DNA of 64,000 nucleotides from a virus: IMG/VR virus record IMGVR_UViG_3300015202_000004, positions 83,943 through 147,942 of that record. One strand, 5' to 3'. Shown here one piece after another: positions 10,415 through 54,581 of this stretch (the stretch's first letter is position 1; each line of letters starts with the position of its first letter). The notes below the pieces were generated by a model. That model worked only from the letters and a program-made list of their open reading frames with translations, was not told where the DNA came from and made no database searches. Both the position numbers and the translations under genes were made by a program.

Positions 10415-10489
10415 TGGCCGGGGAAGCGGGTAACGCTCCCGCGTCTCATGCTTTTCAGGCATACGCTAATCTGTCTCAGCTATTCCCCG
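10415..10489 (-). tRNA. tRNA-Phe(GAA), atypical elbow
   Basis: Loop CTGAAAA; T loop AGCGTTA; D loop AG in place of GG; G73. Confidence 0.75.
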
Positions 10490-10561
10490 ATAAGTACGTT
10501 CCTATCCGCCGTCACGTACAACCGCTAGTTGGCGCATTTTCAGCGCTTCACATTTTAAAAT

Positions 10562-10635
10562 TGGCTTCCCCGAATGGATTCGAACCACTGTGACAACGTT
10601 CAAAGCGTTGCATCCTACCGCTAGATGACAGGGAA
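10562..10635 (-). tRNA. tRNA-Gln(TTG)
   Basis: CAACG-CTTTGAA-CGTTG, CCA. Confidence 0.85.
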
Positions 10636-10651
10636 ATATGTTTTAAATTTT

Positions 10652-10726
10652 TGGCTCCATCGGTTGGTTCCGCCCCAACATCTTATTGTTCAAAGCAATG
10701 TATCCTACTAGTTAGACGACGATGGA
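10652..10726 (-). tRNA. tRNA-Gln(TTG), atypical elbow
   Basis: Loop CTTTGAA; T loop GGCGGAA; D loop AACTAGTA. Confidence 0.75.
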
Positions 10727-10732
10727 ATAAAT

Positions 10733-10807
10733 TGGCTCCCTCGGCTGGCTCCGCCCCAACATTAATGGCTTCAGAGGCCATAGTCCTACTCATTAGACGA
10801 CAAGGGA
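10733..10807 (-). tRNA. tRNA-Gln(CTG), atypical elbow
   Basis: ATGGC-CTCTGAA-GCCAT; T loop GGCGGAG; D loop AATGAGTA. Confidence 0.75.
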
Positions 10808-10981
10808 ATAAATTTTATATTGATTCTTTTTCTAGAATTTTTCCGCGTAATTCATTCTTGTTTGAACGCGCTTTGTTGAATTTTCTCAACTTTGGATTGC
10901 AGGTAGAGCATTTTACTAATCTGTGAAATCGCTGCCATGCCTTGCCGCTTAAGTTAGTTTTGTATTGCATTTTAATCTTTT

Positions 10982-11056
10982 TGGTGGCCTATGTCGGTTC
11001 TGCCCCGACTTTCACTGTTCGAAAGACAGTTGTCCTAACTAGTAGACGAATAGGCC
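10982..11056 (-). tRNA. tRNA-Glu(TTC), atypical elbow
   Basis: ACTGT-CTTTCGA-ACAGT; T loop GGCAGAA; D loop ACTAGTTA. Confidence 0.75.
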
Positions 11057-11123
11057 AAGTATGTTATTTTATTAACTCAATTTACTATTATTATGGTAAC
11101 ACACTTTGCTTAAGGAGTCAAAC

Positions 11124-11690
11124 GTGGCTACCAAACGAACTGACGAAGAATATATTGACGCGGCCAGACAATCTAAATATATGAAACAAATGTTGGAAAT
11201 TTTAAATTTAAAAACAATGAATTATAAAAGTCTTAGAGAAAGGCTAAAAAGGTTAAATATTGATACTTCTCATTGGGAAACTCAAAATAATTTTAGATTC
11301 AAGAAAGGAAATCAATTAAATGTAAAACCTATATTAGAACAATTAGTCGAGTACGCGCCCAATTTAAAATCTTCTACGGTTAGAAATAAATTAGTCAAAG
11401 AAGGTCACTGGGTTTATCAATGTTATAATTGTAAAATATCTGATTGGGATAATAAGTCATTAACTTTACAATTGGACCATATTAACGGAATAAATACTGA
11501 TTATCGTTTGGAAAATTTACGTTTATTATGTCCCAATTGTCATTCGCAAACTGATACTTATTGTGGAAAAAATGTAAAAAGAAAAGAAAAATTAGTTAAA
11601 ATTAAATTTTGCGAATGTGGAGTTAAAATTTATAAAAGTTCTAAAAACTGTGTTTCATGCTCTAATAGAAAGAAGAAGAAACAGATTTGA
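11124..11690 (+). CDS. HNH endonuclease inserted antisense within tRNA cluster
   Basis: GTG start after AAGGAG; LQLDHINGINTDYRLENLRLLCPNCHSQT. Confidence 0.9.
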   Translation: MATKRTDEEYIDAARQSKYMKQMLEILNLKTMNYKSLRERLKRLNIDTSHWETQNNFRFKKGNQLNVKPILEQLVEYAPNLKSSTVRNKLVKEGHWVYQCYNCKISDWDNKSLTLQLDHINGINTDYRLENLRLLCPNCHSQTDTYCGKNVKRKEKLVKIKFCECGVKIYKSSKNCVSCSNRKKKKQI

Positions 11691-11699
11691 TTTAAAAAT

Positions 11700-11773
11700 T
11701 GGCTCCCGAGGGTGTAATCGAAACACCTCCTTGCCCTTAACAGGGGCCTGCACGACCTTCATGCTACTCGGGA
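11700..11773 (-). tRNA. tRNA-Asn(GTT)
   Basis: Loop CTGTTAA, G73, CCA. Confidence 0.85.
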
Positions 11774-11792
11774 ATACATTTGAATTATTTTC

Positions 11793-11883
11793 TGGAGCGG
11801 CTAGGTGTCGAACCCGCTTCTCTGCTCGCGAAGCAGCGCATTAGCCTTCTGCCCTATAGACGGCATCCGTATGCTACGCTCCA
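11793..11883 (-). ncRNA. tRNA-like RNA, CGC anticodon, extra hairpin in D loop
   Basis: TGGAGCG/CGCTCCA acceptor, CTGC-TTCGCGA-GCAG, TTCGACA T loop, D-loop insert TGCCGTCTATAGGGCA; lacks G3:U70. Confidence 0.45.
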
Positions 11884-12022
11884 TCATTATGTATGTTTTA
11901 GTTTTTTGCTTTTCCAAGCTTGACGAAGGTTACCTTTTTTTGAAATACGCCATTTGAATTTAATGACGGTGATTTTCACTTCCTTTTCCATAATGCATAT
12001 AGCCTACTTTCTTAATAGTATT

Positions 12023-12110
12023 TGGTGGGCAAGAGAGGAGTCGAACCTCTACGCTACAAGAGCGATTGCCGGGTTACAGCCGGGTACATTAGCCATTCTG
12101 TCACCTGCCC
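12023..12110 (-). tRNA. tRNA-Tyr(GTA)
   Basis: Loop CTGTAAC, long V arm, CCA. Confidence 0.85.
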
Positions 12111-12124
12111 AAATTTTTCCCAAT

Positions 12125-12401: not shown

Positions 12402-12478
12402 TGGACCCGATAAAGAGACTCTAACTCTTAACCTTTTCGTTCGAAGCGAAATGCTCTATACTATTGAGCTATATCGGG
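12402..12478 (-). tRNA. tRNA-Arg(TCG)
   Basis: TTTCG-CTTCGAA-CGAAA; T loop TTAGAGT with D loop GT (U19:A56). Confidence 0.75.
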
Positions 12479-14618: not shown

Positions 14619-14693
14619 TGGTTGCGAAGCCGTGGATTTGCGCCAGTTAGATGAGCTTATGAGACTCACGCGATACTAAACCGCCCGCTCGCA
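14619..14693 (-). tRNA. tRNA-Met(CAT), atypical
   Basis: TGAGT-CTCATAA-GCTCA; T loop CGCAAAT; D loop AG; CCA. Confidence 0.6.
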
Positions 14694-14732
14694 TTTACAT
14701 TATAGTACATTAAATTACTTTTGTCAAGTGTT

Positions 14733-19128: not shown

Positions 19129-19555
19129 TGGTGGAGCCGACGAGGTGACGCTCCTCGTGTCCTGAAACGTTTACCTTACAAGATTTTACAGGTTTTCCTA
19201 CTTTGTCCTCATAGGAATTGGCTTGAAGTCTTCAGCTTCGCGTCTACTATTGGTTGGTAGCCCAAATCATGTGCCGTTATTTAAACTGCCGGGATGATAC
19301 AAGCAGCCTACTCGGATGTTACCGGAGGATATTCAGTAAGGGCGCACTGAAACGCTAGGCCCCCGAGGGAGCCCTACCCCGTATTACTCTACGGAGAAGA
19401 GAGGATTAAGCAGCTACGGCCTCGTTTGCCATGAAGGAATTGAAGCTTGCTACTGTGATGTTGTCTGCAATTAAGCAATTTGGTCCTTTATAGTGCCTGA
19501 CCAACACTACCTGTCCTGCGAAGACTCGCTATCCCAGTCGAAACTGCTCGGCCCC
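19129..19555 (-). ncRNA. ssrA: tmRNA
   Basis: GGGGCCG..TTCGAC 5' end, CGGCTCCACCA 3' end with G3:U70; tag frame 19468-19406 ADNITVASFNSFMANEAVAA*. Confidence 0.92.
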
Positions 19556-21956: not shown

Positions 21957-22652
21957 TTAGCAATAAGAATAACTCTTAAGTTCTTTTTTCAGCTTGCGCT
22001 TGGCGCTCCTATAAATTTTCTCTGGATTCGGCTCGTTGAAGTCCTCTCGGATTTCAGAGTCTTTGAAAGTACTTGCCGTGATATAACCCGATTTCAATTC
22101 AAAAACTTCCCGTTCGATGAGCGTCAATTTCTCAAGCGCTTGTGTAATTGTAGGAGAAATTAGATTACGCTCAACTGTGTCGTAAGTATAATCGCGATTT
22201 GGCTCGATAGTCTTTAAATCTTTGCTCTTACCATCTGGGTGATTAACGTCCAAGGAAGATTCTTTCAAAATATTCCCGACTTGTTCTATCATTTTTTCTT
22301 TATTAGCTACGTTGTATTTATAGGCTCTGACAATATGAGTTGGGACATGAACCGGAAAAGTCGTACAATATCTTTCGAACATTTTAGTTTTCATCCAGAG
22401 AGTGGCATACGTCAAAGGATGAACATCTTTGTCAAAATCAAATTTTTTAACAGCTACAATAAAACCAATATTGCACTCTTGTACTAAATCTTCAAATTCA
22501 ACACGCTTACTGAAAACCTTATGTTCTCTTCCAGCCATTTTATGAAAGTATGGCTGGTTAATCTGAAGTAATTGAGATAAGTATTTATTATTACCTGTTG
22601 CGTGATACAACCAAACTAAATTTTGTTGAAATTCCTTGGAATACTTTTTCAT
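21957..22652 (-). CDS. sigma70-family phage sigma factor
   Basis: FEDLVQECNIGFIVAVKKFD..TYATLW (region 2); LTLIEREVFEL (region 4). Confidence 0.8.
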   Translation of the reverse strand: MKKYSKEFQQNLVWLYHATGNNKYLSQLLQINQPYFHKMAGREHKVFSKRVEFEDLVQECNIGFIVAVKKFDFDKDVHPLTYATLWMKTKMFERYCTTFPVHVPTHIVRAYKYNVANKEKMIEQVGNILKESSLDVNHPDGKSKDLKTIEPNRDYTYDTVERNLISPTITQALEKLTLIEREVFELKSGYITASTFKDSEIREDFNEPNPEKIYRSAKRKLKKELKSYSYC

Positions 22653-22757: not shown

Positions 22758-22837
22758 TGGTGTCCCAGGCAGGACTCGAACCTGCATCTATTCCATTATG
22801 CGCTAAACTGCTTAGAAGGCAGTGCCATTACTGGGAC
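22758..22837 (-). tRNA. tRNA-Arg(TCT)-like, D arm missing, expanded variable region
   Basis: GTCCCAG-TAATGGC-ACTGC-CTTCTAA-GCAGT-21 nt-GCAGG-TTCGAGT-CCTGC-CTGGGAC-ACCA. Confidence 0.65.
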
Positions 22838-22842
22838 ATATT

Positions 22843-22918
22843 TGGTGGGTTAGGCGAGGTTCGAACTCGCTGTTGTCGCGTTAAGAGCGCGATGCTACGC
22901 CAATTTAGCTTCTAACCC
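22843..22918 (-). tRNA. tRNA-Lys(CTT)
   Basis: TCGCG-CTCTTAA-CGCGA, CCA. Confidence 0.85.
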
Positions 22919-24474: not shown

Positions 24475-25125
24475 TTAGACTTTTACATCCATAGGATGTG
24501 CTGTTGGCCCTGCTGTCCAAGGACGACGAGGTTTTGCTAATCGAACCGCATCTGCAAGTCCTGGTGCCTGCATTAATTCAGCACGGAATTTATCATAATA
24601 TTTATGTAATTTTGGATTAGTAAATTTTGCCCAAGATTCATAATCATCATCCCACAAAAACTGACGCATAAAGGTGGCACTAATTGGATATTTTTCTCTT
24701 GCCACAATAATTTCAGTCATATGTTTAGTTGAATTTATTAAGGGTTCGGAAGCTTTAAACCAATTTTGGTTTTTAGGTTCAAAACCATAAATATAAACAT
24801 CAGGGCTTTTTCTAGTTATTTGTTTAACAGAATTCAGCACATGCTGTCCCCATTCGTTATTTACAGTCGAACCGTCTATATCAGATAAAGCACTAACCAT
24901 AACTTCATCACCAGGAAAAACACTTTTAATCATATTTTGCCTTGTTATAACAGAATATGGATTTTTAATAGTTCCATATTCTTGTGAAGAGCCAAGAAGA
25001 ATCAAAACTCTATCTGCAACGCTCAAAGCGGTGTTAACCAAATGTTCATGACCAATGTGAAAACTTTGCATTCTTCCAACAATTAAAGCTAGGTCAAAAG
25101 GTCTGGTTATTGTACGTGCTTCCAT
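24475..25125 (-). CDS. NMN adenylyltransferase (NadM-like)
   Basis: GRMQSFHIGH, GSSQE..KNPY, ISATFMR. Confidence 0.85.
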   Translation of the reverse strand: MEARTITRPFDLALIVGRMQSFHIGHEHLVNTALSVADRVLILLGSSQEYGTIKNPYSVITRQNMIKSVFPGDEVMVSALSDIDGSTVNNEWGQHVLNSVKQITRKSPDVYIYGFEPKNQNWFKASEPLINSTKHMTEIIVAREKYPISATFMRQFLWDDDYESWAKFTNPKLHKYYDKFRAELMQAPGLADAVRLAKPRRPWTAGPTAHPMDVKV

Positions 25126-25291: not shown

Positions 25292-26764
25292 TTAAATTAC
25301 CATGGTTTGCGCTTTTTCTTTAATCGTTGCGAATGTACGTTCGCGAATCTGCTCGAAAGTGTACGTCACTGGATTTGTTCCATTAAAGTATGTCGTTTCC
25401 AAAACGCTTGGCGCGTGGCATAGCGGGTCATCAAGATTCAAACGGTCGATTGTTGTGTAGCCATCATTTCGACCAGTGAAACCATTTTTGTCTTCCACAA
25501 GGTCAAGGTCGCCGCCGCGTGACTTCTTACCTGGGTCAGTGATAGGGTCCTTCTGAATTGGGACGTAGATACCATTAATTTTTGCAAGGCAAAGCTTCGT
25601 TGCCCAGCGATAGGTATCGCGGTTTACCTTTTGGTGAAGACCACCACCTGTACCGAAGGCCACGTTATCTAGAGCAAAGCCTGCGGCCATAACTGCCTTA
25701 CAAATCTTTTCAATTAGAATTACGTCGTTACCGTCACCATTGATTACTGCAACATGGTTTAAAACCTTGTAACCCTTACCATTGACCGTTACGCCAAAGC
25801 TCTTTTCAAGAGATTGTAGAATCATTACTACATTGACTACCGCGTCTCCGCTATCAGGACGCAGGACAAATAATTTGCCTGAATCAATAATATCCTGCTT
25901 GTATTGAACGCCAATGATATTGTTCACAAAGTTCATCATATCGTAGGAATCAATAACATTCGCAACCAGTGGAGCGCCTGGGAAACGTGTCAACGATTTG
26001 TTAACGATAAGATGCTCAAGCGCCTTACCATGTGCCGTTGTCACACTGTGTTCCGAGGCCGGGATTGAAAAGGCAGGCATACCGGAGTATCCATACATTT
26101 TCTTCGCATAGGCGATACCTTCAACCGTATCACTACCACCAGAGATTAACGTGTGAACTGCACCACCGATTGCCGCCGATTCGCTACTCGTTGAACCTCG
26201 GGCACCGAAGTCGTGGTTACGCGAAGGGTAAAGAGCGTCGGGCGCATCCGAAGTGAGCAACAGGTATTTGTAAATTATTGTGGCAATTTCCATATCGTTC
26301 GTTGCGAACGATGCACCATACCACGAAGCGCGAAGCTGCATGGTTTCAAGGAAGGAAGTCATCCAGAACAAACGTTCGTCTGTTGAGCGTACAGTAGCCA
26401 TTACATTGTGGCTAGGGACCGTTAGACCTTCGGGTACAGAGCGAATAAGTGCCGGAATCTTACCGTCGTACTTTTCAATCATGTACTTAATATCTTCGTA
26501 GGGGAAAATGTCCGCGCCTAGGAAGTGTTCTTTATAGAAGTCTCGTGCTTCTTCATTGTCCTCATGCGTAACAGTAATGTCGGCTAGTTCTTTAGCGAAC
26601 ATCTGGAAACCTAGCCAAGTAATATCTGCTTCGACTTTACCATTGCTAGCGTCTGTTCCGCGCGATTCCGTGTAGGTCATCAATTCGGTTACACCATCGG
26701 GGTACATGCGGGGGTGGGAAATCTTGTACGAATCTGTCCTGTACAAAGGGTTCATTCTAATCAT
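25292..26764 (-). CDS. nadV: nicotinamide phosphoribosyltransferase
   Basis: TDSYKISH, HDFGARG, PASEHS, DSYD, RPDSGD, KDPITDPGKKS. Confidence 0.92.
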   Translation of the reverse strand: MIRMNPLYRTDSYKISHPRMYPDGVTELMTYTESRGTDASNGKVEADITWLGFQMFAKELADITVTHEDNEEARDFYKEHFLGADIFPYEDIKYMIEKYDGKIPALIRSVPEGLTVPSHNVMATVRSTDERLFWMTSFLETMQLRASWYGASFATNDMEIATIIYKYLLLTSDAPDALYPSRNHDFGARGSTSSESAAIGGAVHTLISGGSDTVEGIAYAKKMYGYSGMPAFSIPASEHSVTTAHGKALEHLIVNKSLTRFPGAPLVANVIDSYDMMNFVNNIIGVQYKQDIIDSGKLFVLRPDSGDAVVNVVMILQSLEKSFGVTVNGKGYKVLNHVAVINGDGNDVILIEKICKAVMAAGFALDNVAFGTGGGLHQKVNRDTYRWATKLCLAKINGIYVPIQKDPITDPGKKSRGGDLDLVEDKNGFTGRNDGYTTIDRLNLDDPLCHAPSVLETTYFNGTNPVTYTFEQIRERTFATIKEKAQTMVI

Positions 26765-28625: not shown

Positions 28626-28700
28626 TGGTAGCCTATGAGGGAATCGAACCCTCGTTACTGATGTGAAAAACCAGTTTCCTAGCCGTTAGAAGAATAGGCC
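28626..28700 (-). tRNA. tRNA-Glu(TTC)
   Basis: CTGGT-TTTTCAC-ATCAG, CCA. Confidence 0.85.
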
Positions 28701-30102: not shown

Positions 30103-30177
30103 TGGTCGGCTAGGCAGGAATCGGACCTGCTCTAGGTAGCTTATCAAGCTACTGCTTTCCCACTAAGCTACTAGCCG
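30103..30177 (-). tRNA. tRNA-Ile(GAT)
   Basis: GTAGC-TTGATAA-GCTAC; T loop TCCGATT. Confidence 0.8.
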
Positions 30178-30997: not shown

Positions 30998-31072
30998 TGG
31001 CGGTCCTGACGGATTCTGACACCGCAACCTTCCGCTCGACAGGCGGATGCTCTTCCTTTGAGCTACAGGACC
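30998..31072 (-). tRNA. tRNA-Asp(GTC)
   Basis: TCCGC-CTGTCGA-GCGGA, G73, irregular T arm. Confidence 0.7.
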
Positions 31073-35635: not shown

Positions 35636-35641
35636 ATATTG

Positions 35642-35713
35642 AGCGGAAAGATGGAATTGAACCACCGACCAACAGATTAGAAACCTGCTGCTCTTACACT
35701 GAGCTATTTCCGC
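35642..35713 (-). tRNA. tRNA with TCT anticodon (Arg) on a Gly-like body
   Basis: GCGGAAA/TTTCCGC + U73; GCAGG-TTTCTAA-TCTGT. Confidence 0.65.
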
Positions 35714-37017: not shown

Positions 37018-37091
37018 TGGAGCCAGGTCGGAGAATCAAACTCCGGTCTTTGGATTACGAAACCAACATAATATCACTATACTAACCTGGC
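37018..37091 (-). tRNA. tRNA-Thr(CGT)
   Basis: Loop TTCGTAA; D loop GA with T loop TTTGATT (A19:U56). Confidence 0.8.
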
Positions 37092-37338: not shown

Positions 37339-37416
37339 TGAGGCCCAGGTTGGAATCGGACCAACGCATATCCTAGCTTGCAACTAGGTCGCCTTTACCC
37401 ACTTGGCTACCGGGCC
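37339..37416 (-). tRNA. tRNA-Cys(GCA)
   Basis: CCTAG-TTGCAAG-CTAGG, U73, T loop TCCGATT. Confidence 0.8.
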
Positions 37417-38280: not shown

Positions 38281-38355
38281 TGGTTGGCAAGGCGGGTTTC
38301 GAACCCGCGACTTCTACAGTGTCAGCGTGACGTTCTCTCGCTAAACTATCCGCCA
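38281..38355 (-). tRNA. tRNA-Val(GAC)
   Basis: Loop CTGACAC, CCA; weak anticodon stem. Confidence 0.7.
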
Positions 38356-40732: not shown

Positions 40733-40807
40733 TGGTGTGTCTGGAGGGTAACGCTCCCTCTTGGGTGGCTTCACAAACCACTACATTACTTTTATGCTAC
40801 AGACACC
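40733..40807 (-). tRNA. tRNA-His(GTG), atypical elbow
   Basis: GTGGT-TTGTGAA-GCCAC; encoded G-1; A73; T loop AGCGTTA. Confidence 0.75.
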
Positions 40808-43687: not shown

Positions 43688-44329
43688 TTAGGTCCTAATC
43701 AATTCGTTGTCTTTGATATCTAGCAAAATGCGTCGTTCATTTATTTCTGTTAGCTTGAAGAAAATTTGCATCATTTGCTTAACGTCGCCAACGGCTCCGT
43801 GTGCGCGTTCGTTAGGAATGTTCAAAAGCTTACCAAGGTTATCTTGACTGATGTGTTTTAGATTCGGCATCGTGGCACGAACTAAACCCTTCATTTCATC
43901 TGTTCTACGGAACATCCATTTTGTATACTTCTCAAGCTCTGGAACATGCTTGTCAAAAGCATACTGAAAGAACCAAGTGTCGAATCCAAAATTATTACCA
44001 ATTACTGTCGCTTTTGCATTTGGATTATAAAGCTGCATGTGCTTATCCATAAAAGCAATGAATTCAATCAGAACATCTTTAATAGGGCGTTGGGCCGCGA
44101 TGAATTCTCGTGTAAGCCCATTAATTTTTAATGCCGTCTCTTCGTACACTACGTCTCCTGGATTACAATGCTCAGAAAAAGAAGCCTTCTGATTTCCCTC
44201 TGCATCATACACTATTGCCGCGATATCTACAATGCCATTTAACCAAGGCTTTACACCAGTGGTTTCAGTATCGACGCCAACGAAAGTTGTGTAATAAGGT
44301 TTAATTATTTCTCTGCTAATTATACTCAT
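43688..44329 (-). CDS. DEDDh 3'-5' exonuclease
   Basis: VDTETTG, NNFGFD, AHGAVGD. Confidence 0.85.
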   Translation of the reverse strand: MSIISREIIKPYYTTFVGVDTETTGVKPWLNGIVDIAAIVYDAEGNQKASFSEHCNPGDVVYEETALKINGLTREFIAAQRPIKDVLIEFIAFMDKHMQLYNPNAKATVIGNNFGFDTWFFQYAFDKHVPELEKYTKWMFRRTDEMKGLVRATMPNLKHISQDNLGKLLNIPNERAHGAVGDVKQMMQIFFKLTEINERRILLDIKDNELIRT

Positions 44330-44802
44330 AGTTCTCTCTTCATAAAAAAAGGATGCTCCATAATGATAGTATGTTTGCATCTTTTTTGCTCACTTATGAA
44401 GCTAAGTTAATTTATTCACCGTATTCATCCGCAGTTACATAATAAAATTTCTTGCTAGGTACTTGAATGACGATTAGGGTTCCATTTGGATTTTCTTGTA
44501 TATGAACTAAAACTTTATCAGGAATATCTTTTAAATCAGATATATTATGATAAGGGAAATTATAAACTTTAGCTTGTGTTGCTTCGCCTAAAAGTTCACG
44601 ATTTTGCCACAAATATGAATTGAAAACATTCATATCGTTTTCGCGCTTATCATGGTCGCTTTGTCTAAAATCTTTGTCGTTATGCATAAAATTTTAACCT
44701 CGTTTTTTTGTTACATATTTAATTTAATTTGTTAAAGTTTTAAAAATTTTGGGCGTATCAAATAACGCAATAAGAAAACACATTAAAATAAGAGAAAAAA
44801 TT

Positions 44803-44888
44803 CATGGGAAGCAGGATTCGAACCCGCGAGAGGCTTGCGCCGTGCCGCTTTTGGAGAGCGGTGCCATCGACCACTAGGCTATTCCCAT
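44803..44888 (-). tRNA. tRNA-Trp(CCA) with long variable arm
   Basis: CCGCT-CTCCAAA-AGCGG; V arm GGC-GCAA-GCC; G73. Confidence 0.75.
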
Positions 44889-44895
44889 ATATAAT

Positions 44896-45350: not shown

Positions 45351-45836
45351 GTATTGAAGAAATTTAATTCATTAACGGTTTGATTTTGGAATAAAATTCT
45401 TCGATAATGAAATTTATTTTACCTGTTGATTCCCAAAAATTGATTTGGGTTTGTCCATATTTTAGGGCAAGCTTTTCAACAATTAAGTTTTTGATTTTCT
45501 TAAAGAAAGGGTCAGAGAACTTAAGTTGCATAGCCGACTTTTCTTCATTATAGCGGCTAATCTCTTCTTCATCTTTGGGTTCATGGCACCAATGACCGTA
45601 TGCTCTGGCGACTTCTTTATGTTGACAAAAAGAATTTAAACCGTTTGCTTTTCGAACGGCAACGACTTCTTCATTTGTGTAACGTTGGCTGCCTGTTTTA
45701 CCCAACACTTTATAATGTCCAAAAATTTTAAATACTTCGACGTTATTAATATACAAAATAATGCTTCGATGGCTTACAGTTTGGGCTGTCTCAGGGGCAA
45801 TTGTAATCACTTATGAAATCCTTTTAGTTAGAAATT

Positions 45837-45910
45837 TGCCCCGACTGGGAATCGAACCCAGACTCACAAGTTTTTAGAGAACTCGGTTCTAACCGTTGAA
45901 CTATCGAGGC
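45837..45910 (-). tRNA. amber suppressor tRNA (CTA anticodon)
   Basis: GCCTCGA-TA-GTTC-AACGGTTA-GAAC-C-GAGTT-CTCTAAA-AACTT-GTGAGT-CTGGG-TTCGATT-CCCAG-TCGGGGC-A. Confidence 0.82.
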
Positions 45911-45996
45911 ATATTTGTTCCCCGTGCGTTGCATTACACTCCGCAAATCGCCTGTTTTTCACAGGGTGCCTCTTATACGGCTGACAGGGAATTTGA

Positions 45997-48189: not shown

Positions 48190-48714
48190 TCATTTCATAA
48201 CCTTTACACAATCGCGAACTTCCATAAGAACTTCGCCGAGCCAATTTGTACCACGCCAGTTTGCCGGATTATTTACACGGGGGTCATTTACCGCTAATTT
48301 AACACCCCAAATAGCATCGTAAGGCGAAGCTTCAACAAGGTGCTTATCTCCCGTAGAGATAATGTATTTACGTAGTTTTTCATCAGATGTGAATTTTGAT
48401 AAATTAACATTGAAAACAATATCTTTGGCAACATTGTTCCACGTTTCAACATCAAAGTTCTTTACAGTTTTACCCAAAGCTTTTTGCCCCGAAGGGTTCG
48501 ATTCGCGCATGATTTTATCAAACGCTTCCTCGTCATTAAAGAATAAAGCTTTACCAGCCATCATTCCTTGTTCAGCACAATTTAGTGCCAATTGTTTTCC
48601 AAATAACTCAGCACTAAAATTACCAGTCTGATACCACTGGGAAAACACGCCTCCGTAGAAGAAGACGTATTTTTCAGTGATTCTTTGGGAATCCAATATT
48701 AACCCTTCACGCAA
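48190..48714 (-). CDS. NADAR family protein
   Basis: FSQWY, AEQGMMAGKALFF, KALGK.VKNFD, EASPYDAIWG, GTNWLG. Confidence 0.9.
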   Translation of the reverse strand: MREGLILDSQRITEKYVFFYGGVFSQWYQTGNFSAELFGKQLALNCAEQGMMAGKALFFNDEEAFDKIMRESNPSGQKALGKTVKNFDVETWNNVAKDIVFNVNLSKFTSDEKLRKYIISTGDKHLVEASPYDAIWGVKLAVNDPRVNNPANWRGTNWLGEVLMEVRDCVKVMK

Positions 48715-50825
48715 AGAACTTGTTTGATTTGATGCACCACTTCAACTAAATCAGATTGAGCCGCCATGACAGCATCAATGTCTTTATAAGCTTGTGGGAT
48801 TTCGTCTATCACCCCAATATCTTTTCTGCACTCAACACCCTTGGTTGCAGCGATTTGGTCTTCAACCGTGAACTGTTTCTTTGCTTGTGTACGCGACATT
48901 ACTCGTCCTGCCCCGTGGGAACAAGACATGTAAGATTCAGCGTTTCCAAGACCGCGAACAATGTACGATTTAGTACCCATCGAACCAGGGATAATTCCCA
49001 TTTCCCCTCGGCCAGCGCGAACCGCACCCTTACGGCTTACATACATTTCTTCACCGAAGTGAATTTCTGTAGTAACGTAGTTGTGGTGACAGTTGATGAC
49101 TTCGGTGTCAATGGTGAACGTTGGAAGCTTAAGGCGGTCCTCACGCATTACTGAAAGCAAACGCTTAAGCATGACTTCACGGTTTGTGGCCGCATAATCT
49201 TGTGCCCAAGTCATTGCCTTGACGTAATCCTCGAACGAATCCGTACCTTCCGATAAGAACGCAAGGTCCTTATCCGGCAAAACTTCGCCACGCTTTTCAA
49301 GTTCCGCTTTCGCTTCGTTGATAAAGTATGAACCGATTTTGTTACCGATTCCACGCGAACCCGAGTGCAGCATTAACCATACGCGATTTTCTCTGTCGAG
49401 ACAGAGTTCGATGAAGTGGTTGCCGCCACCAAGGGTAGCAAGCTGATTGACCGGGTGCTTGTCGTTGACGATTTTTGGATATTTCTCGTCTAACCATTTG
49501 AACCCAGCATCAAGGTGCTTCCAGCCTGTTTCAACAACAGACGGGACACGAGTATGCATGTTGAATCCAACTGGAACCGTGCGCTCAAAAGCTTCACGGA
49601 GAGGTTTTAAATCAGATGGCAAATCTTCGGCCTTCAAAGAAGTACGAACTGCCGCCATGCCACAATTACCTGTCATAGCAATGTTCCCACCTCGTCGCAT
49701 TACCCAGTATCCAGATGGCAAAGTAAAACAATAAGCCCTACCGTCAATCGGAACTACTTCTGTTATTTCTGACTTTGGCACACCAGCCATACCCACCATG
49801 GTATTATTATGAGCAAAAACACGATAATCAATGGCACCACTGTAATGTTCATCTTGCCGTAAAACCGCTCTATATCCAGATGCAGTAAAAGCATAATGAG
49901 CAAAATCAGCAGCTTCTTTAATCCGCGTAAAAAATACACGGTCTTTTATATTCCCGTCCCAATGAAAACATTCATCAGTGAAAATTTTTAATTGCGCTAA
50001 AGAAGCTTTCCAAAGCCATTCATATGTTTTTGTAACTTTTGGCGGTAGAAATCTGAAAGATACATCTTCGCCATAAATTTTTTCTGTATACTTAATTTTT
50101 GCGGCATCTAAAAGTTCTTTTGCTTTTTTTGATTTACGGGCTTTACGTACCTTTACAACAGCATGATTTTGATGGTCAATATGACCATCTGCTAAAACCA
50201 TTACCATAACACGCAAATTATCATCTGAGATTTCAATTGAATTTGATAAAACTGGTGTAAAAGTAGTCATAAATTCAGCTTTATAACCTTGAACTAAATA
50301 GTCATGTGTCCTTTTAAATTGTTCAGCAGTTATAACTTTTTGAACACGAATCCGGTCGCGGCCAGAAATTTCCCAACACAAAATTGTATGGTCTGGCGAT
50401 AAAACTTGGTTAATACCATGCTTAGTTTTAAAAGAATATAGTTTATCGTATTCTTTTTTAATATATTCTTTTGGTTTAACAAACTCACCTTGGCCTGTAC
50501 TCGGGTCATATTGCATAACTGAATCACCGTCTTGATATTCTGAAATAAATTTCCATCCATCTTCAGATAAAAATTCTGTTTCCGCATCAACGCAACCGAT
50601 ATCAACGCCAACGATGCTCGGAATTATAACATTCTTGGTTGCAATTACACTACCAACAGTTGAACCAATTCCGGCGTGTACGTCGGGCATGATTGCTACA
50701 CCGTGGACGAATGGAAGCAACGCAACGTTTAAAACTTGCTTACGGGCAGATTCTTCGAAGACTACGCCTTCGACCCAAGCCTTAACAGGCTTACGCCCTG
50801 GCCCTTCAATTAATTCATAATTCAT
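48699..50825 (-). CDS. rtcB: RtcB RNA ligase containing an intein
   Basis: MPDVHAG, VGVDIG/CGM, TLGGGNHFIE, HSGSRG, HHNY, PGSMG, SHGAGR. Confidence 0.95.
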   Translation of the reverse strand: MNYELIEGPGRKPVKAWVEGVVFEESARKQVLNVALLPFVHGVAIMPDVHAGIGSTVGSVIATKNVIIPSIVGVDIGCVDAETEFLSEDGWKFISEYQDGDSVMQYDPSTGQGEFVKPKEYIKKEYDKLYSFKTKHGINQVLSPDHTILCWEISGRDRIRVQKVITAEQFKRTHDYLVQGYKAEFMTTFTPVLSNSIEISDDNLRVMVMVLADGHIDHQNHAVVKVRKARKSKKAKELLDAAKIKYTEKIYGEDVSFRFLPPKVTKTYEWLWKASLAQLKIFTDECFHWDGNIKDRVFFTRIKEAADFAHYAFTASGYRAVLRQDEHYSGAIDYRVFAHNNTMVGMAGVPKSEITEVVPIDGRAYCFTLPSGYWVMRRGGNIAMTGNCGMAAVRTSLKAEDLPSDLKPLREAFERTVPVGFNMHTRVPSVVETGWKHLDAGFKWLDEKYPKIVNDKHPVNQLATLGGGNHFIELCLDRENRVWLMLHSGSRGIGNKIGSYFINEAKAELEKRGEVLPDKDLAFLSEGTDSFEDYVKAMTWAQDYAATNREVMLKRLLSVMREDRLKLPTFTIDTEVINCHHNYVTTEIHFGEEMYVSRKGAVRAGRGEMGIIPGSMGTKSYIVRGLGNAESYMSCSHGAGRVMSRTQAKKQFTVEDQIAATKGVECRKDIGVIDEIPQAYKDIDAVMAAQSDLVEVVHQIKQVLCVKG
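49665..50594 (-). mobile_element. intein (310 aa) with LAGLIDADG-like endonuclease region
   Basis: Starts CVDAETEFLSEDGW, ends YCFTLPSGYWVMRRGGNIAMTGN/C; internal VLADG and HWDG blocks. Confidence 0.88.
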
Positions 50826-52089: not shown

Positions 52090-52303
52090 TAGTGCCTCAG
52101 AAGATGAAAAATGCTGTAATAATTATGATGGTAGTAGTGATGAAATTATAATGATGGTATTAAGAGCTTGAATATAATGGTCGCGACGGCATTCGACAAC
52201 CAACGAGTATGGTGACCAAAAAATAAGTAAATATACTTCATGGAACTATGGTATCACATAAGTAATAAAAAAGCAAGAAACCCTTATCGGGCTTCTTTAA
52301 AAT

Positions 52304-52391
52304 TGGAGGAAAGCAGAGTAATTGAAACCCACTCCTTGCAGAGCCAACGATATTCGAAGCCGTGCTGGTACGCCTGTCCAGTTTACTTTCC
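52304..52391 (-). tRNA. tRNA-Ser(CGA)
   Basis: Loop TTCGAAT, long V arm, CCA. Confidence 0.7.
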
Positions 52392-52437
52392 ATAAGAATT
52401 TTAATTTAAAATGGAGGACTTATAACATTTGAAATAT

Positions 52438-52527
52438 TGGAGGAAGAGGAGCGAGTCGAACGCTCAAGGGCTTTAACACCTCGACAATTTTCTAGATTGC
52501 TACCGTCGCCAATCGGCTTGCTCTTCC
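52438..52527 (-). tRNA. tRNA-Ser(AGA)
   Basis: GCAAT-CTAGAAA-ATTGT, long V arm, CCA. Confidence 0.8.
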
Positions 52528-52816
52528 ATGCTCTATTTAGTATACCACAAAAACCTCAGAAGTCAAGACCTAAGAATGTTCAACAATTAAATTGGGGGAA
52601 ATAAATTGAACGAAGTCTATATCTTCAGGCTTTTTTCCTTCCAAACTTTGAAGGAGCTTGTCGAAATAGGTTTCAGGGTCCTTAAAGATGTAGGTATAGA
52701 AAATGCTATCAGTATTTTCTAATGACTTCTTAATACCTGAATTGTCAAATTCCATATACCAATGACCGTTACTATGAGTTAGCGTTGCGATTGGGTAAGA
52801 ATTTCCACAGGATAAA

Positions 52817-53851
52817 TCAGGTAGATACTTTATTTGATACTTCATTAATCCAAGCCTTATCGTGGGTAATTTTTGTGTCGTAAATGCTAAATTCAATGAT
52901 GGTCTTATCAACTTCAAATCCTAACTCTTGAATATCCATTTTTAGAAATTCAACAACGTTTTCAAAATCTTCTTTATAAGCATCGTATGAACGCAATGTC
53001 ATCATTATTATATAACGTTTTTTATCAATTCTTTTAAACATATTACGGGAAAGATGGGCATCGTATCTAGTAGCTAAATCCTTTAACAATTCAATACTTG
53101 GTGGAACTCCATAAGGAATAAAGGCTGCGCCACTTCGGCAAAGACGTTCCCATTGTAACGATTCTTCAAGCGTCATAGGTTCTTCTACAACAACTGCCAA
53201 ATGGCTTTCAAAATAACAATCTTTTGGCATTGTTTCTGGTCCAAATTGACTAGATGGCGCTGCCGGATGCCAAGGCACTGTTTCAATCTTACTTCTAACT
53301 ACTGAAATTCCCGCTTCAGTCAAAGCCCTGTTTACACGCTCTACTTCAGCATATGCTTTCTGATTGTTACCAAATAAAACAGACGAAGTTTGCACATCCT
53401 CTAGTAAAACGTTCCCCGCTCTACTTTGAAGGTCCAAGATAATTGGTTTTACTCCAATTTCATTACAAACTTTTTTGAAATGCTCACATTCAACATTTTC
53501 AACAGTAATGTGAATCTCATAAGGGATGTTATCATGGTTTTTAATAGCGTCTTCTTTAACTTGAAGAGAACGCCACTTAGCAGACTTTTTGACTATCATT
53601 GATTCAATTTCGTCAGTTGTAAATCCAACGTCATATGCACAACTTATAGCACACAAAATTGTATCAACCGCTTCGTTAAGAACTGATTCTCTTTCAACGA
53701 ATTGATGAATTGCACCTGGCTGATTCGTATAAGCTAAAACAACCTTGGCTAAATCTCCTGCTTCGTTTGAAGTCTTTAAAGCCTTACCTGTTAGGTCTTT
53801 TTTGTCTTCGCTCGAAAGAAATTTTATGTAGTCAAAGATTTTTTTATTCAT
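52817..53851 (-). CDS. MazG-like domain fused to an unknown domain
   Basis: NEAGDLA..NEAVD N-terminal region; YEIHITV / FESHL C-terminal region. Confidence 0.55.
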   Translation of the reverse strand: MNKKIFDYIKFLSSEDKKDLTGKALKTSNEAGDLAKVVLAYTNQPGAIHQFVERESVLNEAVDTILCAISCAYDVGFTTDEIESMIVKKSAKWRSLQVKEDAIKNHDNIPYEIHITVENVECEHFKKVCNEIGVKPIILDLQSRAGNVLLEDVQTSSVLFGNNQKAYAEVERVNRALTEAGISVVRSKIETVPWHPAAPSSQFGPETMPKDCYFESHLAVVVEEPMTLEESLQWERLCRSGAAFIPYGVPPSIELLKDLATRYDAHLSRNMFKRIDKKRYIIMMTLRSYDAYKEDFENVVEFLKMDIQELGFEVDKTIIEFSIYDTKITHDKAWINEVSNKVST

Positions 53852-54337
53852 TTAGCTTCCTTGTCTGTTTTTAATTTAGCACGGTCAGATACAATTTTTT
53901 CTTCGCAAGCTTTAATGATGAATTCTTCAATAGTCTCGCGAGTTTTTAAACACGCTTCAAGAATTAAAAGATAAAGTTTACGGTCAATTTCAAGTTGAAT
54001 AGTTACGTATTTTTTATTTATATTAAACTCGCACGTATTCGATGATTTTTACTTCTTTAGGTGCCACTTCAAAACATTGAACATTGCCAACTTCATATTC
54101 AAAAGGTCTTTCACCTATCGCATCGCCTGTATTTTTACGATAGTCAACCTGATAATATTTATTATCGGGACTTCTAAAAACCATTGTATAAATGTTGGCC
54201 CAACGTGTGGAGCCCGTTTCCTTTTCTTCCACCTTGATATAATCTTCATTCTCATCCCAAACTATTTCTCTTAATACTCCGGGTGACAATTTAATGGTTG
54301 CCATCTTTATTCTCTTTTTCTAGAAGGTTAAAAATTT

Positions 54338-54425
54338 TGGTGAGACGAGTGGGACTCGCACCCACGTTGAGGAATTACCCTGTCGGTTTAAAAAACCGCT
54401 GCACTCGCTACTTAGCTACCGTCTC
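54338..54425 (-). tRNA. tRNA-Lys(TTT) with long variable arm and atypical elbow
   Basis: GCGGT-TTTTTAA-ACCGA; 17-nt V region; T loop TGCGAGT; CCA. Confidence 0.7.
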
Positions 54426-54430
54426 ATATT

Positions 54431-54505
54431 TGGTGCGCCCGGTGGGACTTAAACCCACAACCAATCCGTTAAAAGCGGATTGCTCTATCATTGAGCTACA
54501 GGCAC
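54431..54505 (-). tRNA. tRNA-Lys(TTT)
   Basis: ATCCG-CTTTTAA-CGGAT; A19:U56. Confidence 0.85.
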
Positions 54506-54506
54506 A

Positions 54507-54581
54507 TGGTGGATTAGGTGGGTACTGCCCCCACATAGACTTGCTTAAGAGGCAAGCACATTACTTGTCTGCCACTAATCC
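54507..54581 (-). tRNA. tRNA-Lys(CTT), atypical elbow
   Basis: CTTGC-CTCTTAA-GCAAG; T loop GGCAGTA. Confidence 0.75.

What the first reader, a model, noticed from the sequence alone, without database searches (positions are those of the whole stretch)
10415..54581. Systematic compensatory rewiring of the tRNA elbow, including the tmRNA
Seen: the D-loop GG becomes AG together with T-loop position 55 becoming G in Phe 10415 (AGCGTTA), Gln 10652 (GGCGGAA), Gln 10733 (GGCGGAG), Glu 10982 (GGCAGAA), Met 14619 (CGCAAAT), His 40733 (AGCGTTA), Lys 54338 (TGCGAGT), Lys 54507 (GGCAGTA) and the tmRNA (AGCGTCA; 5' GCAGTTTCGAC). G19:C56 is separately replaced by A19:U56 (Thr 37018, Lys 54431) and U19:A56 (Arg 12402). 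Established: G18:Psi55 and G19:C56 are near-universal and the T loop is the TrmA/TruB substrate. Inference: paired changes imply selection for folded, functional tRNAs that avoid something recognising the canonical elbow. Four of them lie in the attenuator-controlled cluster.
Basis: partly seen in the sequence, partly recalled or inferred. Interest (0 to 1): 0.72.

Follow-up and report, generated by a model that had tools for sequence, protein, structure and literature searches.

The report
Phage tRNAs with a rewired elbow
Seven tRNA genes and the tmRNA gene of this large uncultured phage replace two near-universal touching bases at the corner of the tRNA (G18 and U55) with a matched A18 and G55, a swap that recurs in many phages and bacteria and likely gives working tRNAs that enzymes acting on U55 cannot modify.

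Summary
Seven tRNAs (Phe, Gln x2, Glu, His, Lys x2) and the tmRNA have A18-G19 in the D loop with G55 in the T loop. Three more tRNAs have swapped 19:56 pairs (A:U twice, U:A once). "Met 14619" is not supported as a tRNA gene, and I found no sign of an attenuator.

Among 51 credible tRNAs in the window, A18 and G55 always occur together (7 with both, 0 with one alone, 44 with neither). Positions 54:58 also change, to A:U or G:G.

Scans of viral contigs selected on the T arm alone gave 85 of 91 distinct tRNAs with AG at 18/19, against 0 of 80 with a canonical T loop. U56 T loops went with G18-A19 in 55 of 57.

The same elbow is in the only tRNA-Cys of a Saccharibacteria genome and in all-G55 tRNA arrays of bacterial genomes, so it very likely works in translation.

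G at T-loop position 2 with an intercalated adenine is the riboswitch T-loop pattern. The idea that the swap evades something that reads the elbow stays untested.

I found no paper describing the swap. This scan has noted it before on other DNA (39 earlier notes, at least 36 genomes).

The parts
10415..10489 (-). tRNA-Phe(GAA) with variant elbow: A18-G19, T loop AGCGUUA (A54 G55 C56 G57 U58). A canonical Phe twin lies at 8245-8320.
   Evidence: ARAGORN; Rfam 47.2 bits; 0 stem mismatches and a GCCA tail; cloverleaf is the minimum-energy fold, z -4.0.
10652..10726 (-). tRNA-Gln(UUG) with variant elbow: A18-G19, T loop GGCGGAA (G54 G55 C56 G57 G58). A canonical Gln-UUG twin lies at 10562-10635.
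   Evidence: ARAGORN only at the lowered threshold; scanner 1 mismatch (C27.A43) and a GCCA tail; no Rfam tRNA match even at E<=10; 79% identical to Gln-CUG 10733.
10733..10807 (-). tRNA-Gln(CUG) with variant elbow: A18-G19, T loop GGCGGAG.
   Evidence: Rfam 39.7 bits, seen only with relaxed filters; 0 stem mismatches and a GCCA tail; the Rfam model aligns A-G to its consensus G-G; the minimum-energy fold is not the cloverleaf.
10982..11056 (-). tRNA-Glu(UUC) with variant elbow: A18-G19, T loop GGCAGAA. It has the same acceptor 5' strand (GGCCUAU) as the canonical Glu-UUC at 28626-28700.
   Evidence: Missed by ARAGORN and by both whole-window Rfam runs. Rfam 42.4 bits on the 431-base stretch; 0 stem mismatches and an ACCA tail; cloverleaf is the minimum-energy fold, z -3.2; 72% identical to the canonical Glu-UUC.
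19129..19555 (-). tmRNA with the same swap: 5' GCAGUUUCGAC (A-G where the consensus has G-G), T arm CGAGG-AGCGUCA-CCUCG.
   Evidence: Rfam RF00023 68.1 bits against a cut-off of 47; sequence; tag ADNITVASFNSFMANEAVAA* from ARAGORN at the lowered threshold, which labelled it tmRNAp.
40733..40807 (-). tRNA-His(GUG), the only His tRNA found in the genome, with variant elbow: D loop AAAAGUA, T loop AGCGUUA. A G is encoded at position -1 (40807).
   Evidence: ARAGORN; Rfam 46.6 bits, seen only with relaxed filters; 0 stem mismatches and an ACCA tail; z -4.2; G at -1.
54338..54425 (-). tRNA-Lys(UUU) with A18-G19 and T loop UGCGAGU (U54 G55 C56 G57 A58). It has an unusual extra arm of 4 base pairs.
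   Evidence: ARAGORN; Rfam 41.2 bits; fold with an extra hairpin. My scanner did not call it.
54507..54581 (-). tRNA-Lys(CUU) with variant elbow: D loop ACAAGUA, T loop GGCAGUA. A canonical Lys-CUU lies at 22843-22918.
   Evidence: Rfam 43.2 bits; 0 stem mismatches and an ACCA tail; missed by ARAGORN; the minimum-energy fold is not the cloverleaf.
37018..37091 (-). tRNA-Thr(CGU) with A19:U56 in place of G19:C56 (D AGUGAUA, T UUUGAUU).
54431..54505 (-). tRNA-Lys(UUU) with A19:U56 (D AAUGAUA, T UUUAAGU).
   Evidence: Rfam 65.7 bits.
12402..12478 (-). tRNA-Arg(UCG) with U19:A56 (D AAUAGUAUA, T UUAGAGU).
   Evidence: Rfam 67.6 bits.
30998..31072 (-). Second tRNA-Asp(GUC) with G54 and G58 but U55 and a G-G D loop (T loop GUCAGAA). 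Here the 54:58 change occurs without the 18:55 change.
   Evidence: Rfam 52.5 bits; sequence; scanner 1 mismatch and a GCCA tail.
35641..35713 (-). tRNA-Arg(UCU) with U19 opposite C56: an uncompensated counter-example.
38281..38355 (-). tRNA-Val(GAC) with A19 opposite C56: an uncompensated counter-example.
14619..14695 (-).
   Evidence: No tRNA call; z -0.23; sequence.

Best explanation
Seven tRNA genes and the tmRNA gene carry A18 with G55 in place of G18 with U55, and this matched pair likely rebuilds the elbow in the way of the T-loops of riboswitches (G at loop position 2, an adenine slotted between positions 4 and 5), so that the molecules would fold and work in translation while lacking the U55, and mostly the U54, that TruB and TrmA modify.

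Shown:
- The swap is present at the stated places.
- The two positions change only together, here and in unrelated phage and bacterial tRNAs.
- 19:56 co-varies as a Watson-Crick pair.
- The stems are intact and CCA is encoded.
- The same elbow is in the sole tRNA-Cys gene found in one bacterial genome.

Inferred:
- The three-dimensional contact: A18 intercalating between 57 and 58 and touching G55, with A54:U58 or G54:G58 replacing the U54:A58 reverse-Hoogsteen pair.
- Normal processing, charging and decoding in this phage's host.

Follows from established enzymology: no pseudouridine 55 without U55, no m5U54 without U54, no Gm18 without G18.

The benefit to the phage is unresolved. My working view is a second pool of tRNAs, mostly duplicates of canonical ones, plus a tmRNA, whose folding and stability do not depend on host T-loop modification and which T-loop-reading factors would not recognise.
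For: Window:
- 7 of 51 credible tRNAs have G55 and all 7 have A18; 0 of the other 44 have A18.
- 5 of the 7 have no stem mismatch, and all 7 are followed by NCCA.
- The scanner's false-hit rate is 0-1 per strand.
- 6 of the 7 score 39.7-47.2 bits on the Rfam tRNA model, cut-off 29.
- The Rfam model places A-G under its consensus G-G.
- The tmRNA shows the same swap.

Signs of function:
- His is the only His tRNA in the genome and has G-1.
- The variant Glu shares its acceptor 5' strand with the canonical Glu and is 72% identical to it.
- Both variant Gln have U1:A72 and G73, like the canonical Gln here.

Independence within the window: apart from the two Gln (79%) and Glu/Gln (64-69%), the variant tRNAs are 48-61% identical to each other. 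That suggests roughly five lineages plus the tmRNA.

Outside the window:
- T arm AGCGTTA: 54 of 57 distinct cloverleaf tRNAs are AG-only at 18/19, across 16 anticodons.
- T arm GGCGGAA: 31 of 34, across 12 anticodons.
- Canonical TTCGATT control: 79 of 80 have GG and 0 of 80 are AG-only.
- U56 T loops: 55 of 57 have G-A and no GG.
- Bacterial and archaeal genomes: 59 of the 61 cloverleaf tRNAs at the match are AG-only. 35 of the 61 are tRNA-Cys with D loop AGAAGTT, and all 26 of those with a visible title are Saccharibacteria.
- In one such genome, ARAGORN found 40 tRNAs. The single tRNA-Cys is the variant one and 38 others have G-G.

Structure: passages of bioRxiv 10.1101/2022.12.26.521914 give YGNRA as the FMN/cobalamin riboswitch T-loop consensus. 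They describe near-exclusive use of adenosine as the intercalating base, note that tRNA differs by having U at position 2, and mention a functional rRNA-type GGAAG T-loop.
Against: - No expression, processing, charging or modification data.
- Gln-UUG 10652 gets no Rfam match even at E<=10.
- The minimum-energy folds of Gln-CUG and Lys-CUU are not cloverleaves, and the z-scores of the two Gln are weak at -0.6 and -0.8. The canonical Gln is also only -0.7.
- Two tRNAs with uncompensated 19/56 mismatches show that this phage tolerates imperfect elbows.
- The counts treat related sequences as independent, so the p-values overstate the case.
- The 18/19 assignment uses a slot rule and is ambiguous for some 8-9-base D loops. 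The assignment-free test (no GG anywhere in the D loop) gives 7 of 7 against 5 of 44.
- A:U and G:G at 54:58 fall outside the YGNRA consensus.
- No 3-D model was made.
Confidence: 0.72

Rival explanations
1. Evasion. The variant elbow exists to escape a host or rival-phage factor that reads the canonical T loop or elbow, such as a T-loop-cutting tRNase or a sensor of T54/pseudouridine 55. A nuclease-proof subset of tRNAs and the ribosome-rescue RNA would then keep working during infection.
For: - The phage invests heavily in RNA repair: RtcB, Ro60 with two YrlA-like RNAs and an RNase T-like exonuclease, plus a CCA-adding-type enzyme.
- Most variant tRNAs duplicate a canonical twin: Phe, Gln-UUG, Glu-UUC and Lys-CUU.
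- The variant set is Lys, Gln, Glu, His and Phe. From recall, not from a call, Lys, Gln, Glu and His are frequent targets of anticodon nucleases.
- A T-loop-cutting tRNase is on record (review passage, PMC9086364).
- Phage tRNAs that escape tRNA nucleases are established, but through anticodon-loop changes (abstract of PMC10264068; listings of PMC11464382 and PMC11555353).
- Many bacterial hits lie in arrays in which every cloverleaf has G55: 22 loci.
Against: - No defence system that cuts or senses the T loop of this phage's unknown host is known, and nothing was tested.
- 44 of 51 tRNAs here stay canonical, so a T-loop-directed attack would still cripple translation.
- The sole, conserved tRNA-Cys of Saccharibacteria has the same elbow without any phage context.
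- PMC10264068 does not mention the T-loop, D-loop or elbow at all.
- The phage's own Y-RNA-like elements keep canonical T and D loops.
Confidence: 0.25
2. Neutral alternative state. A18/G55 (and A19:U56) is simply a second stable solution for the elbow. It would be reached by compensated double changes, kept by epistasis, and spread by duplication and horizontal transfer of tRNA genes among phages and tRNA arrays, with no special benefit.
For: - Only a minority of tRNAs in this phage carry it, and three different 54:58 versions coexist.
- It occurs in very different settings: phages, bacterial arrays, and one housekeeping tRNA of a bacterial phylum.
- It is a small minority of viral T arms. 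The scans estimate about 310 and 360 stretches for the two variant patterns, against about 13,000 for one canonical pattern.
Against: - Whole arrays in which every cloverleaf has G55 (22 loci) are hard to reach by drift gene by gene. They point to selection or concerted evolution.
- The same swap in the tmRNA is an independent event in a different RNA.
Confidence: 0.3
3. The variant genes are decaying or non-translational copies: pseudogenes, decoys or regulators rather than decoding tRNAs.
For: - Standard tools score them low or miss them. ARAGORN at its default misses 4 of 7, and the whole-window Rfam run at gathering score also lists only 3 of 7.
- The window does hold degenerate tRNA-like remnants: 14619, 22761-22837 and 55324-55390.
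- Lys-UUU 54338 has an irregular anticodon stem and an extra arm.
Against: - The stems are intact: 5 of 7 have 0 mismatches in 21 pairs.
- All 7 have an encoded CCA.
- Identity features are kept: G-1 of His, U1:A72/G73 of Gln, and the Glu acceptor stem.
- His has no canonical copy.
- The changes are compensatory rather than random.
- The same design is the only tRNA-Cys of a bacterial genome.
Confidence: 0.06

Closest known systems
Canonical bacterial or phage elongator tRNA elbow (G18-pseudouridine 55, G19:C56, T54:A58; Rfam RF00005)
   Same: Cloverleaf, 7-base T loop, C56 paired with G19, purine at 57, encoded CCA, and the usual identity features. 6 of the 7 pass the Rfam cut-off.
   Different: G18 becomes A and U55 becomes G, always together. 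U54:A58 becomes A:U or G:G in 6 of the 7 and in the tmRNA. The sites of pseudouridine 55, m5U54 and Gm18 are absent.
T-loop and receptor modules of FMN and cobalamin riboswitches and of rRNA (consensus YGNRA with an intercalated adenosine; rRNA-type GGAAG loop)
   Same: G at loop position 2, a purine at position 4, and an adenine available to intercalate (A18). UGCGA of Lys-UUU fits YGNRA, and GGCRG resembles the GGAAG loop (passages of bioRxiv 10.1101/2022.12.26.521914).
   Different: Here the receptor is a tRNA D loop, and position 3 still makes the G19:C56 pair. AGCGU (A1...U5) is outside the published consensus. The contact itself is inferred, not seen.
Phage tRNAs that escape tRNA-targeting defences (anticodon-loop variants, PMC10264068; T5 tRNA-Lys against PARIS, PMC11464382; phage tRNAs against retron effectors, PMC11555353)
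   Same: Phage-borne duplicates of host-type tRNAs with changes at positions that enzymes read. They occur in a phage that also carries RNA-repair genes.
   Different: Those changes lie in the anticodon loop or stem and have been tested. Here the change is at the elbow, is compensatory, and is untested. PMC10264068 has no mention of the T-loop, D-loop or elbow.
Sole tRNA-Cys(GCA) of Candidatus Saccharibacteria, and all-G55 tRNA arrays in bacterial genomes
   Same: Identical T loop AGCGUUA with A18-G19. In 22 loci every cloverleaf within 1.5 kb has G55.
   Different: These are cellular genes. The Saccharibacteria case is a single housekeeping tRNA among 39 others with U55. PMC8421152 does not mention the T-loop, G18 or elbow.
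Eukaryotic initiator tRNA (A54:A58) and metazoan mitochondrial tRNAs without a canonical elbow
   Same: These are natural departures from the 'universal' T-loop bases (passages of PMC7912444, and PMC4810234).
   Different: The initiator keeps G18 and U55. Mitochondrial tRNAs lose the elbow and their partners co-evolve, whereas here the elbow is rebuilt with matched bases.

Membership tests
tRNA (Rfam RF00005) | Covariance-model score at or above the gathering score of 29 bits. | tested here: met
   6 of 7 pass: Phe 47.2, Lys-CUU 43.2 and Lys-UUU 41.2; His 46.6; Glu 42.4 and Gln-CUG 39.7. Gln-UUG 10652 has no match at E<=10.
tRNA (Rfam RF00005) | Cloverleaf with a 7-bp acceptor, D, anticodon and 5-bp T stems, U33, and a purine at 37. 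| tested here: met
   The loop-blind scanner gives 0 mismatches for Phe, Gln-CUG, Glu, His and Lys-CUU, and 1 for Gln-UUG. Lys-UUU is called only by ARAGORN, with an irregular anticodon stem. The scanner's chance rate is 0-1 per strand.
tRNA (Rfam RF00005) | Conserved elbow nucleotides G18, G19, U54, U55, C56, A58. | tested here: not met
   All 7 have A18 and G55. 54:58 is A:U or G:G in 6 of 7. G19 and C56 are kept. This is the point of the finding.
tRNA (functional, decoding) | Transcribed, processed, aminoacylated and used on the ribosome. | not testable with these tools
Indirect support: encoded CCA, identity features, and the same elbow in the only tRNA-Cys of a bacterial genome.
tmRNA (Rfam RF00023) | Model score at or above 47 bits, a tRNA-like domain with G3:U70-type acceptor and CCA, and a tag reading frame. 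| tested here: met
   68.1 bits over the full model 1-374. Acceptor GGGGCCG/CGGCUCC followed by ACCA. Tag ending AVAA*. No SmpB gene was found in the record, which is estimated 87% complete.
Generic T-loop motif (YGNRA type) | Pyrimidine at 1 paired with A at 5, G at 2, purine at 4. | tested here: inconclusive
   G at 2 and a purine at 4 in all 8 RNAs. U1...A5 only in Lys-UUU (UGCGA). A1...U5 in Phe, His and the tmRNA. G1...G5 in Gln x2, Glu and Lys-CUU, compared with the GGAAG loop mentioned.
Generic T-loop motif (YGNRA type) | Adenine from the receptor intercalated between loop positions 4 and 5. | not testable with these tools
   A18 sits at the slot that G18 fills in canonical tRNA. This is inferred from covariation. 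No 3-D model or probing was done.
Phage anti-defence tRNAs | Shown resistance to a tRNA-targeting defence nuclease, caused by changed recognition nucleotides. | not testable with these tools
   The published cases concern the anticodon loop. No T-loop-directed defence was linked to this phage.

The most novel reading that the evidence does not exclude
A18/G55 elbows mark a widespread, undescribed 'orthogonal' class of tRNAs and tmRNAs carried by phages and mobile tRNA arrays. They fold without host T-loop modification and are invisible to factors that read T54-pseudouridine 55. Translation and ribosome rescue would then continue when canonical tRNAs are cut, sequestered or left unmodified during phage-host or phage-phage conflict.
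Probability: 0.2. Interest if true: 0.85.

Novelty: new variant of a known kind. Interest (0 to 1): 0.62.

Why it matters
- G18, pseudouridine 55 and T54 are taught as near-universal. Here they are replaced, in matched fashion, in seven tRNAs and a tmRNA. The same replacement turns up in hundreds of viral and bacterial sequences, including an essential single-copy tRNA.
- So the elbow appears to have a second working solution, one that borrows the sequence pattern of riboswitch T-loops.
- Annotation: default ARAGORN and the default whole-window Rfam run both missed 3 of the 7. Phage tRNA inventories therefore undercount such genes.
- Mechanism: these RNAs are natural substrates that TruB, and mostly TrmA and TrmH, cannot modify. 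That makes the role of those modifications directly testable.
- Phage-host conflict: this is a ready hypothesis for tRNA-level counter-defence outside the anticodon loop.
- Engineering: such elbows could serve as scaffolds for orthogonal tRNAs.

Tried and rejected
- Relatives of the phage. There was no megablast or blastn match in named phages. Two window proteins found no relative in viral contigs. Ro60 has only distant matches, below 31% identity. So I could not compare orthologous tRNAs in related phages.
- Met 14619 is rejected as a confirmed tRNA.
- Attenuator. No minus-strand terminator-like site in 10200-11400. Between Glu and Gln-CUG lies a 51-codon ORF (sequence), not an obvious leader. 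I did not pursue it further.
- Amber suppressor and recoding. Reading TAG through adds less open frame than reading TGA or TAA through, and 21 of 144 long ORFs end in TAG. So there is no sign of TAG recoding.
- Phage-encoded partners for the variant RNAs. No SmpB and no TruB were found in the record. A PolyA_pol/CCA-adding-type gene is present outside the window.
- Literature. 'A18'+'G55'+'tRNA' gave 3 unrelated papers. 'G18'+'A18'+'tRNA'+'T-loop' gave 5 papers (listing only), none visibly on natural covariation. 'Saccharibacteria/tRNA-Cys/T-loop' gave nothing relevant. The T-loop modification review PMC7912444 has no 'G55'. Subscription-journal tRNA compilations are not in the library, so an older description cannot be excluded.
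- The first pattern scan was rejected for having too few plain bases. I re-sent it with the downstream CCA included.

Full report
**What the window is**

The window is bases 83943-147942 of a single 193,979-bp virus record with 38.5% G+C. CheckV estimates the record at 87% complete. All tRNA genes of the record lie in this window, on the minus strand.
- ARAGORN at default settings tRNA genes.
- Rfam at gathering score lists 45 tRNA matches and one tmRNA.
- Named phages hold nothing similar at the DNA level.
- Two window proteins found no relative in viral contigs.
- The window also encodes RtcB, a Ro60 protein with two YrlA-like RNAs, an RNase T-like exonuclease and NAD-salvage enzymes.
- A CCA-adding-type enzyme lies outside the window.

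**Checking the observation**

Standard tools score the T loop, so I also wrote a cloverleaf scanner that looks only at stems, U33 and purine 37.
- Scanner specificity: 39 hits with at most one stem mismatch on the minus strand, 31 of them followed by CCA. There was 1 hit on the plus strand and 0, 1, 0, 0, 0 in five shuffles.
- The scanner finds Phe 10418-10489, Gln-CUG 10736-10807, Glu-UUC 10985-11056, His 40736-40806 and Lys-CUU 54510-54581 with no stem mismatch, and Gln-UUG 10655-10726 with one. All are followed by GCCA or ACCA.
- Lys-UUU 54338-54425 is called by ARAGORN and by Rfam (41.2 bits), but not by my scanner.
- On a short stretch, Rfam scores Glu at 42.4 and Gln-CUG at 39.7 bits. 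Its alignment puts their A-G under the model's G-G and their GGC under UUC.
- Gln-UUG gets no Rfam match even at E<=10.
- The tmRNA (68.1 bits) reads GCAGUUUCGAC where the consensus has cuGGaUUCGAC. Its T arm is CGAGG-AGCGUCA-CCUCG.

The A18/G55 claim therefore holds for 7 of the 8 listed tRNAs and for the tmRNA, and the three 19:56 swaps hold as well.

'Met 14619' has a good D arm and a CAT anticodon arm, but only a 3-bp T stem and a 6-of-7 acceptor stem. No tool calls it, and its fold is no better than shuffles (z -0.23).

I found no terminator-like site on the minus strand around the 10415-11056 cluster.

**Is it more than chance?**

I tabulated 51 credible tRNAs: the 46 from ARAGORN, plus Rfam-only 10736, 31001 and 54510, plus 10655 and 10985. 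I left out:
- the weak or odd matches 22761-22837 and 55324-55390;
- the extra low-threshold ARAGORN calls;
- the Met-like site.

Results:
- 18:55 is G:U in 42, A:G in 7 and G:C in 2. A18 never occurs without G55, nor G55 without A18 (Fisher p=8.6e-9, uncorrected for relatedness).
- Without assigning positions at all, 7 of 7 G55 tRNAs lack any GG in the D loop, against 5 of 44 others (p=6.8e-6).
- 19:56 is G:C in 46, A:U in 2, U:A in 1, and mismatched in 2 (Arg-UCU and Val-GAC).
- 54:58 is U:A in 44, G:G in 5 and A:U in 2.
- One tRNA-Asp (31001) has G54/G58 with U55 and G-G.

The variant genes are not one recent family. Apart from the two Gln (79% identical) and Glu/Gln (64-69%), they are 48-61% identical to each other. 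Glu is closest to the canonical Glu, at 72%.

**Test on independent data**

I scanned viral contigs for T arms only (three stem pairs, the loop, then CCA at the right distance). I then asked what the D loop looked like in every hit that formed a cloverleaf.

| T-loop pattern | Matches | Cloverleaves | Distinct tRNAs | Result at 18/19 | Anticodons |
|---|---|---|---|---|---|
| AGCGTTA | 122 | 75 | 57 | 54 AG-only, 2 could be GG, 1 neither | 16 |
| GGCGGAA | 122 | 37 | 34 | 31 AG-only, 1 could be GG, 2 neither | 12 |
| TTCGATT (canonical control) | 135 | 81 | 80 | 79 GG, 0 AG-only | 24 |
| TTTGATT (U56) | 123 | 69 | 57 | 55 G-A without GG, 2 GG | 17 |

The tool's estimates for the whole collection are about 310, 360, 13,000 and 470 stretches. 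The variants are therefore a small but widespread minority.

**Cellular genomes**

The AGCGTTA pattern also hits bacterial and archaeal genomes: 121 matches, with about 570 stretches estimated.
- 61 matches form cloverleaves, and 59 of these are AG-only.
- 35 of the 61 are tRNA-Cys(GCA) with D loop AGAAGTT. All 26 whose titles were displayed are Candidatus Saccharibacteria or Saccharimonadales.
- I fetched the main contig of one such genome, plus the only other stretch with Rfam tRNA matches. ARAGORN finds 40 tRNAs there. The single tRNA-Cys is the variant one, 38 others have G-G, and tRNA-Gly(GCC) has U19:A56.
- The 41st Rfam match is a long tRNA-like gene whose anticodon is not GCA.
- In 22 other loci, every cloverleaf within 1.5 kb on that strand (4 to 17 of them) has G55. 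The titled ones are mostly Verrucomicrobiota.

A tRNA that is the only one for its amino acid must work. So this elbow is compatible with ordinary bacterial processing, charging and decoding.

**How it most likely works**

Background, from passages of PMC4810234 and PMC7912444:
- In the canonical elbow, G18 slots between 57 and 58 and bonds to pseudouridine 55.
- G19 pairs with C56, and T54 pairs with A58.

Outside tRNA, T-loops differ. Passages of bioRxiv 10.1101/2022.12.26.521914 report the following:
- FMN and cobalamin riboswitch T-loops follow YGNRA, with UGNRA at 88.7%.
- The intercalating base is almost always adenosine.
- tRNA differs precisely by having U at position 2.
- A GGAAG rRNA-type loop can also function.

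The phage variants fit this grammar: G at position 2, an adenine at the intercalating slot, UGCGA in Lys-UUU, and GGCRG in four tRNAs. AGCGU, with the 1:5 pair reversed, is outside the published consensus.

I infer that A18/G55 converts the elbow to this generic T-loop contact while keeping G19:C56, the face that RNase P, the ribosome and T-boxes stack on. No 3-D evidence was obtainable. What follows directly from the sequence is that these RNAs have no U55 for TruB, no G18 for TrmH and, except Lys-UUU, no U54 for TrmA.

**Why the phage has them**

This is open.

For an evasion role:
- The phage carries an RNA-repair kit.
- Phe, Gln-UUG, Glu-UUC and Lys-CUU variants duplicate canonical twins.
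- A T-loop-cutting tRNase exists (review passage).
- Phage tRNAs are known to escape tRNA nucleases. The published cases concern the anticodon loop, and PMC10264068 never mentions the T-loop, D-loop or elbow.

Against an evasion role:
- 44 of 51 tRNAs here are canonical.
- The phage's own Y-RNA-like elements are canonical.
- Saccharibacteria keep the same elbow in a housekeeping tRNA.

A neutral, epistatically locked alternative state spread by gene transfer remains a serious rival. Pseudogenes are unlikely.

**Known or new**

Full-text searches gave no description of a natural A18/G55 swap:
- A18+G55+tRNA;
- G18+A18+tRNA+T-loop (listing only);
- Saccharibacteria/tRNA-Cys/T-loop.

The T-loop modification review has no 'G55', and the tRNA-array paper PMC8421152 has no T-loop, G18 or elbow. 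Older compilations in subscription journals could not be searched.

This scan's own earlier notes report the same swap: 39 notes in at least 36 genomes, including phage tRNA sets, verrucomicrobial arrays and CPR tRNA-Cys. I re-tested the generality, the array case and the Saccharibacteria case myself, and took the riboswitch-T-loop lead from one of those notes. I file it as a new variant of a known kind.

**Practical point**

ARAGORN at default settings missed 4 of the 7 variant tRNAs. The default whole-window Rfam run also listed only 3 of 7. Three genes (both Gln and Glu) were missed by both.

Noticed in passing
window 57457-59193 (-), 59694-59743 (-), 59813-59926 (-): A Ro60/TROVE protein gene (Pfam E 4.9e-26) sits next to two YrlA-like Y-RNA modules (30.7 and 29.4 bits, below the cut-off of 69). 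Their tRNA-like parts keep canonical GUUCGAAUC T loops and AGUGGUA D loops, unlike the variant tRNAs.
   Followed up: partly
window 48699-50825 (-); 43688-44380 (-); G000:C1:154326-154709 (outside the window): An RNA-repair kit. RtcB ligase of 708 aa, whose Pfam match starts only at residue 381, so there is a large N-terminal extension or insert. An RNase T-like exonuclease. A PolyA_pol/CCA-adding-type gene in a 529-aa open frame.
   Followed up: no
window 5386-5468, 9444-9528, 44802-44889, 54338-54425 (all -): tRNAs for Thr(UGU), Asn(GUU), Trp(CCA) and Lys(UUU) carry long, base-paired extra arms of the kind normally limited to Leu, Ser and Tyr. Asn and Trp also have a normal-length copy.
   Followed up: no
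window 45836-45911 (-): A tRNA with anticodon CUA (amber suppressor; ARAGORN labels it Pyl) and a canonical elbow. The genome shows no sign of TAG recoding: 21 of 144 long ORFs end in TAG, and TAG read-through adds the least open frame.
   Followed up: partly
window 30103-30177 and 37340-37416 (-): Ile(GAU) and Cys(GCA) copies have C55 (T loop UCCGAUU). Both have three Gs in the D loop (AGUGGGA, AAGUGGGUAAA). This may be a further co-variation.
   Followed up: no
window 22761-22837 and 55324-55390 (-): Two weak Rfam tRNA matches (37.8 and 34.2 bits). One lacks a normal D arm and has a long extra region; the other is degenerate. I left both out of the 51-gene table.
   Followed up: no
window 24475-25125 and 25292-26764 (-): NAD-salvage genes side by side: a cytidylyltransferase-like (NMNAT-type) gene and a nicotinamide phosphoribosyltransferase. 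A sigma-70 region-2 protein lies at 21957-22652.
   Followed up: no
G001 (Saccharibacteria genome behind L550), loci L613-L653: Besides the variant tRNA-Cys, its tRNA-Gly(GCC) has D loop AGUUGUUA with T loop UUAGAGU. That is U19:A56, the same swap as the window's Arg-UCG.
   Followed up: partly
viral contigs behind L034/L149/L412, L188/L426/L427, L065/L180, L011/L386: Four other viral contigs were hit by more than one of the variant patterns (AGCGTTA, GGCGGAA, U56). So mixtures of elbow variants in one phage are not unique to this window.
   Followed up: no
window 10815-10969 (-): A 51-codon basic ORF lies inside the variant tRNA cluster, between Glu-UUC and Gln-CUG.
   Followed up: no
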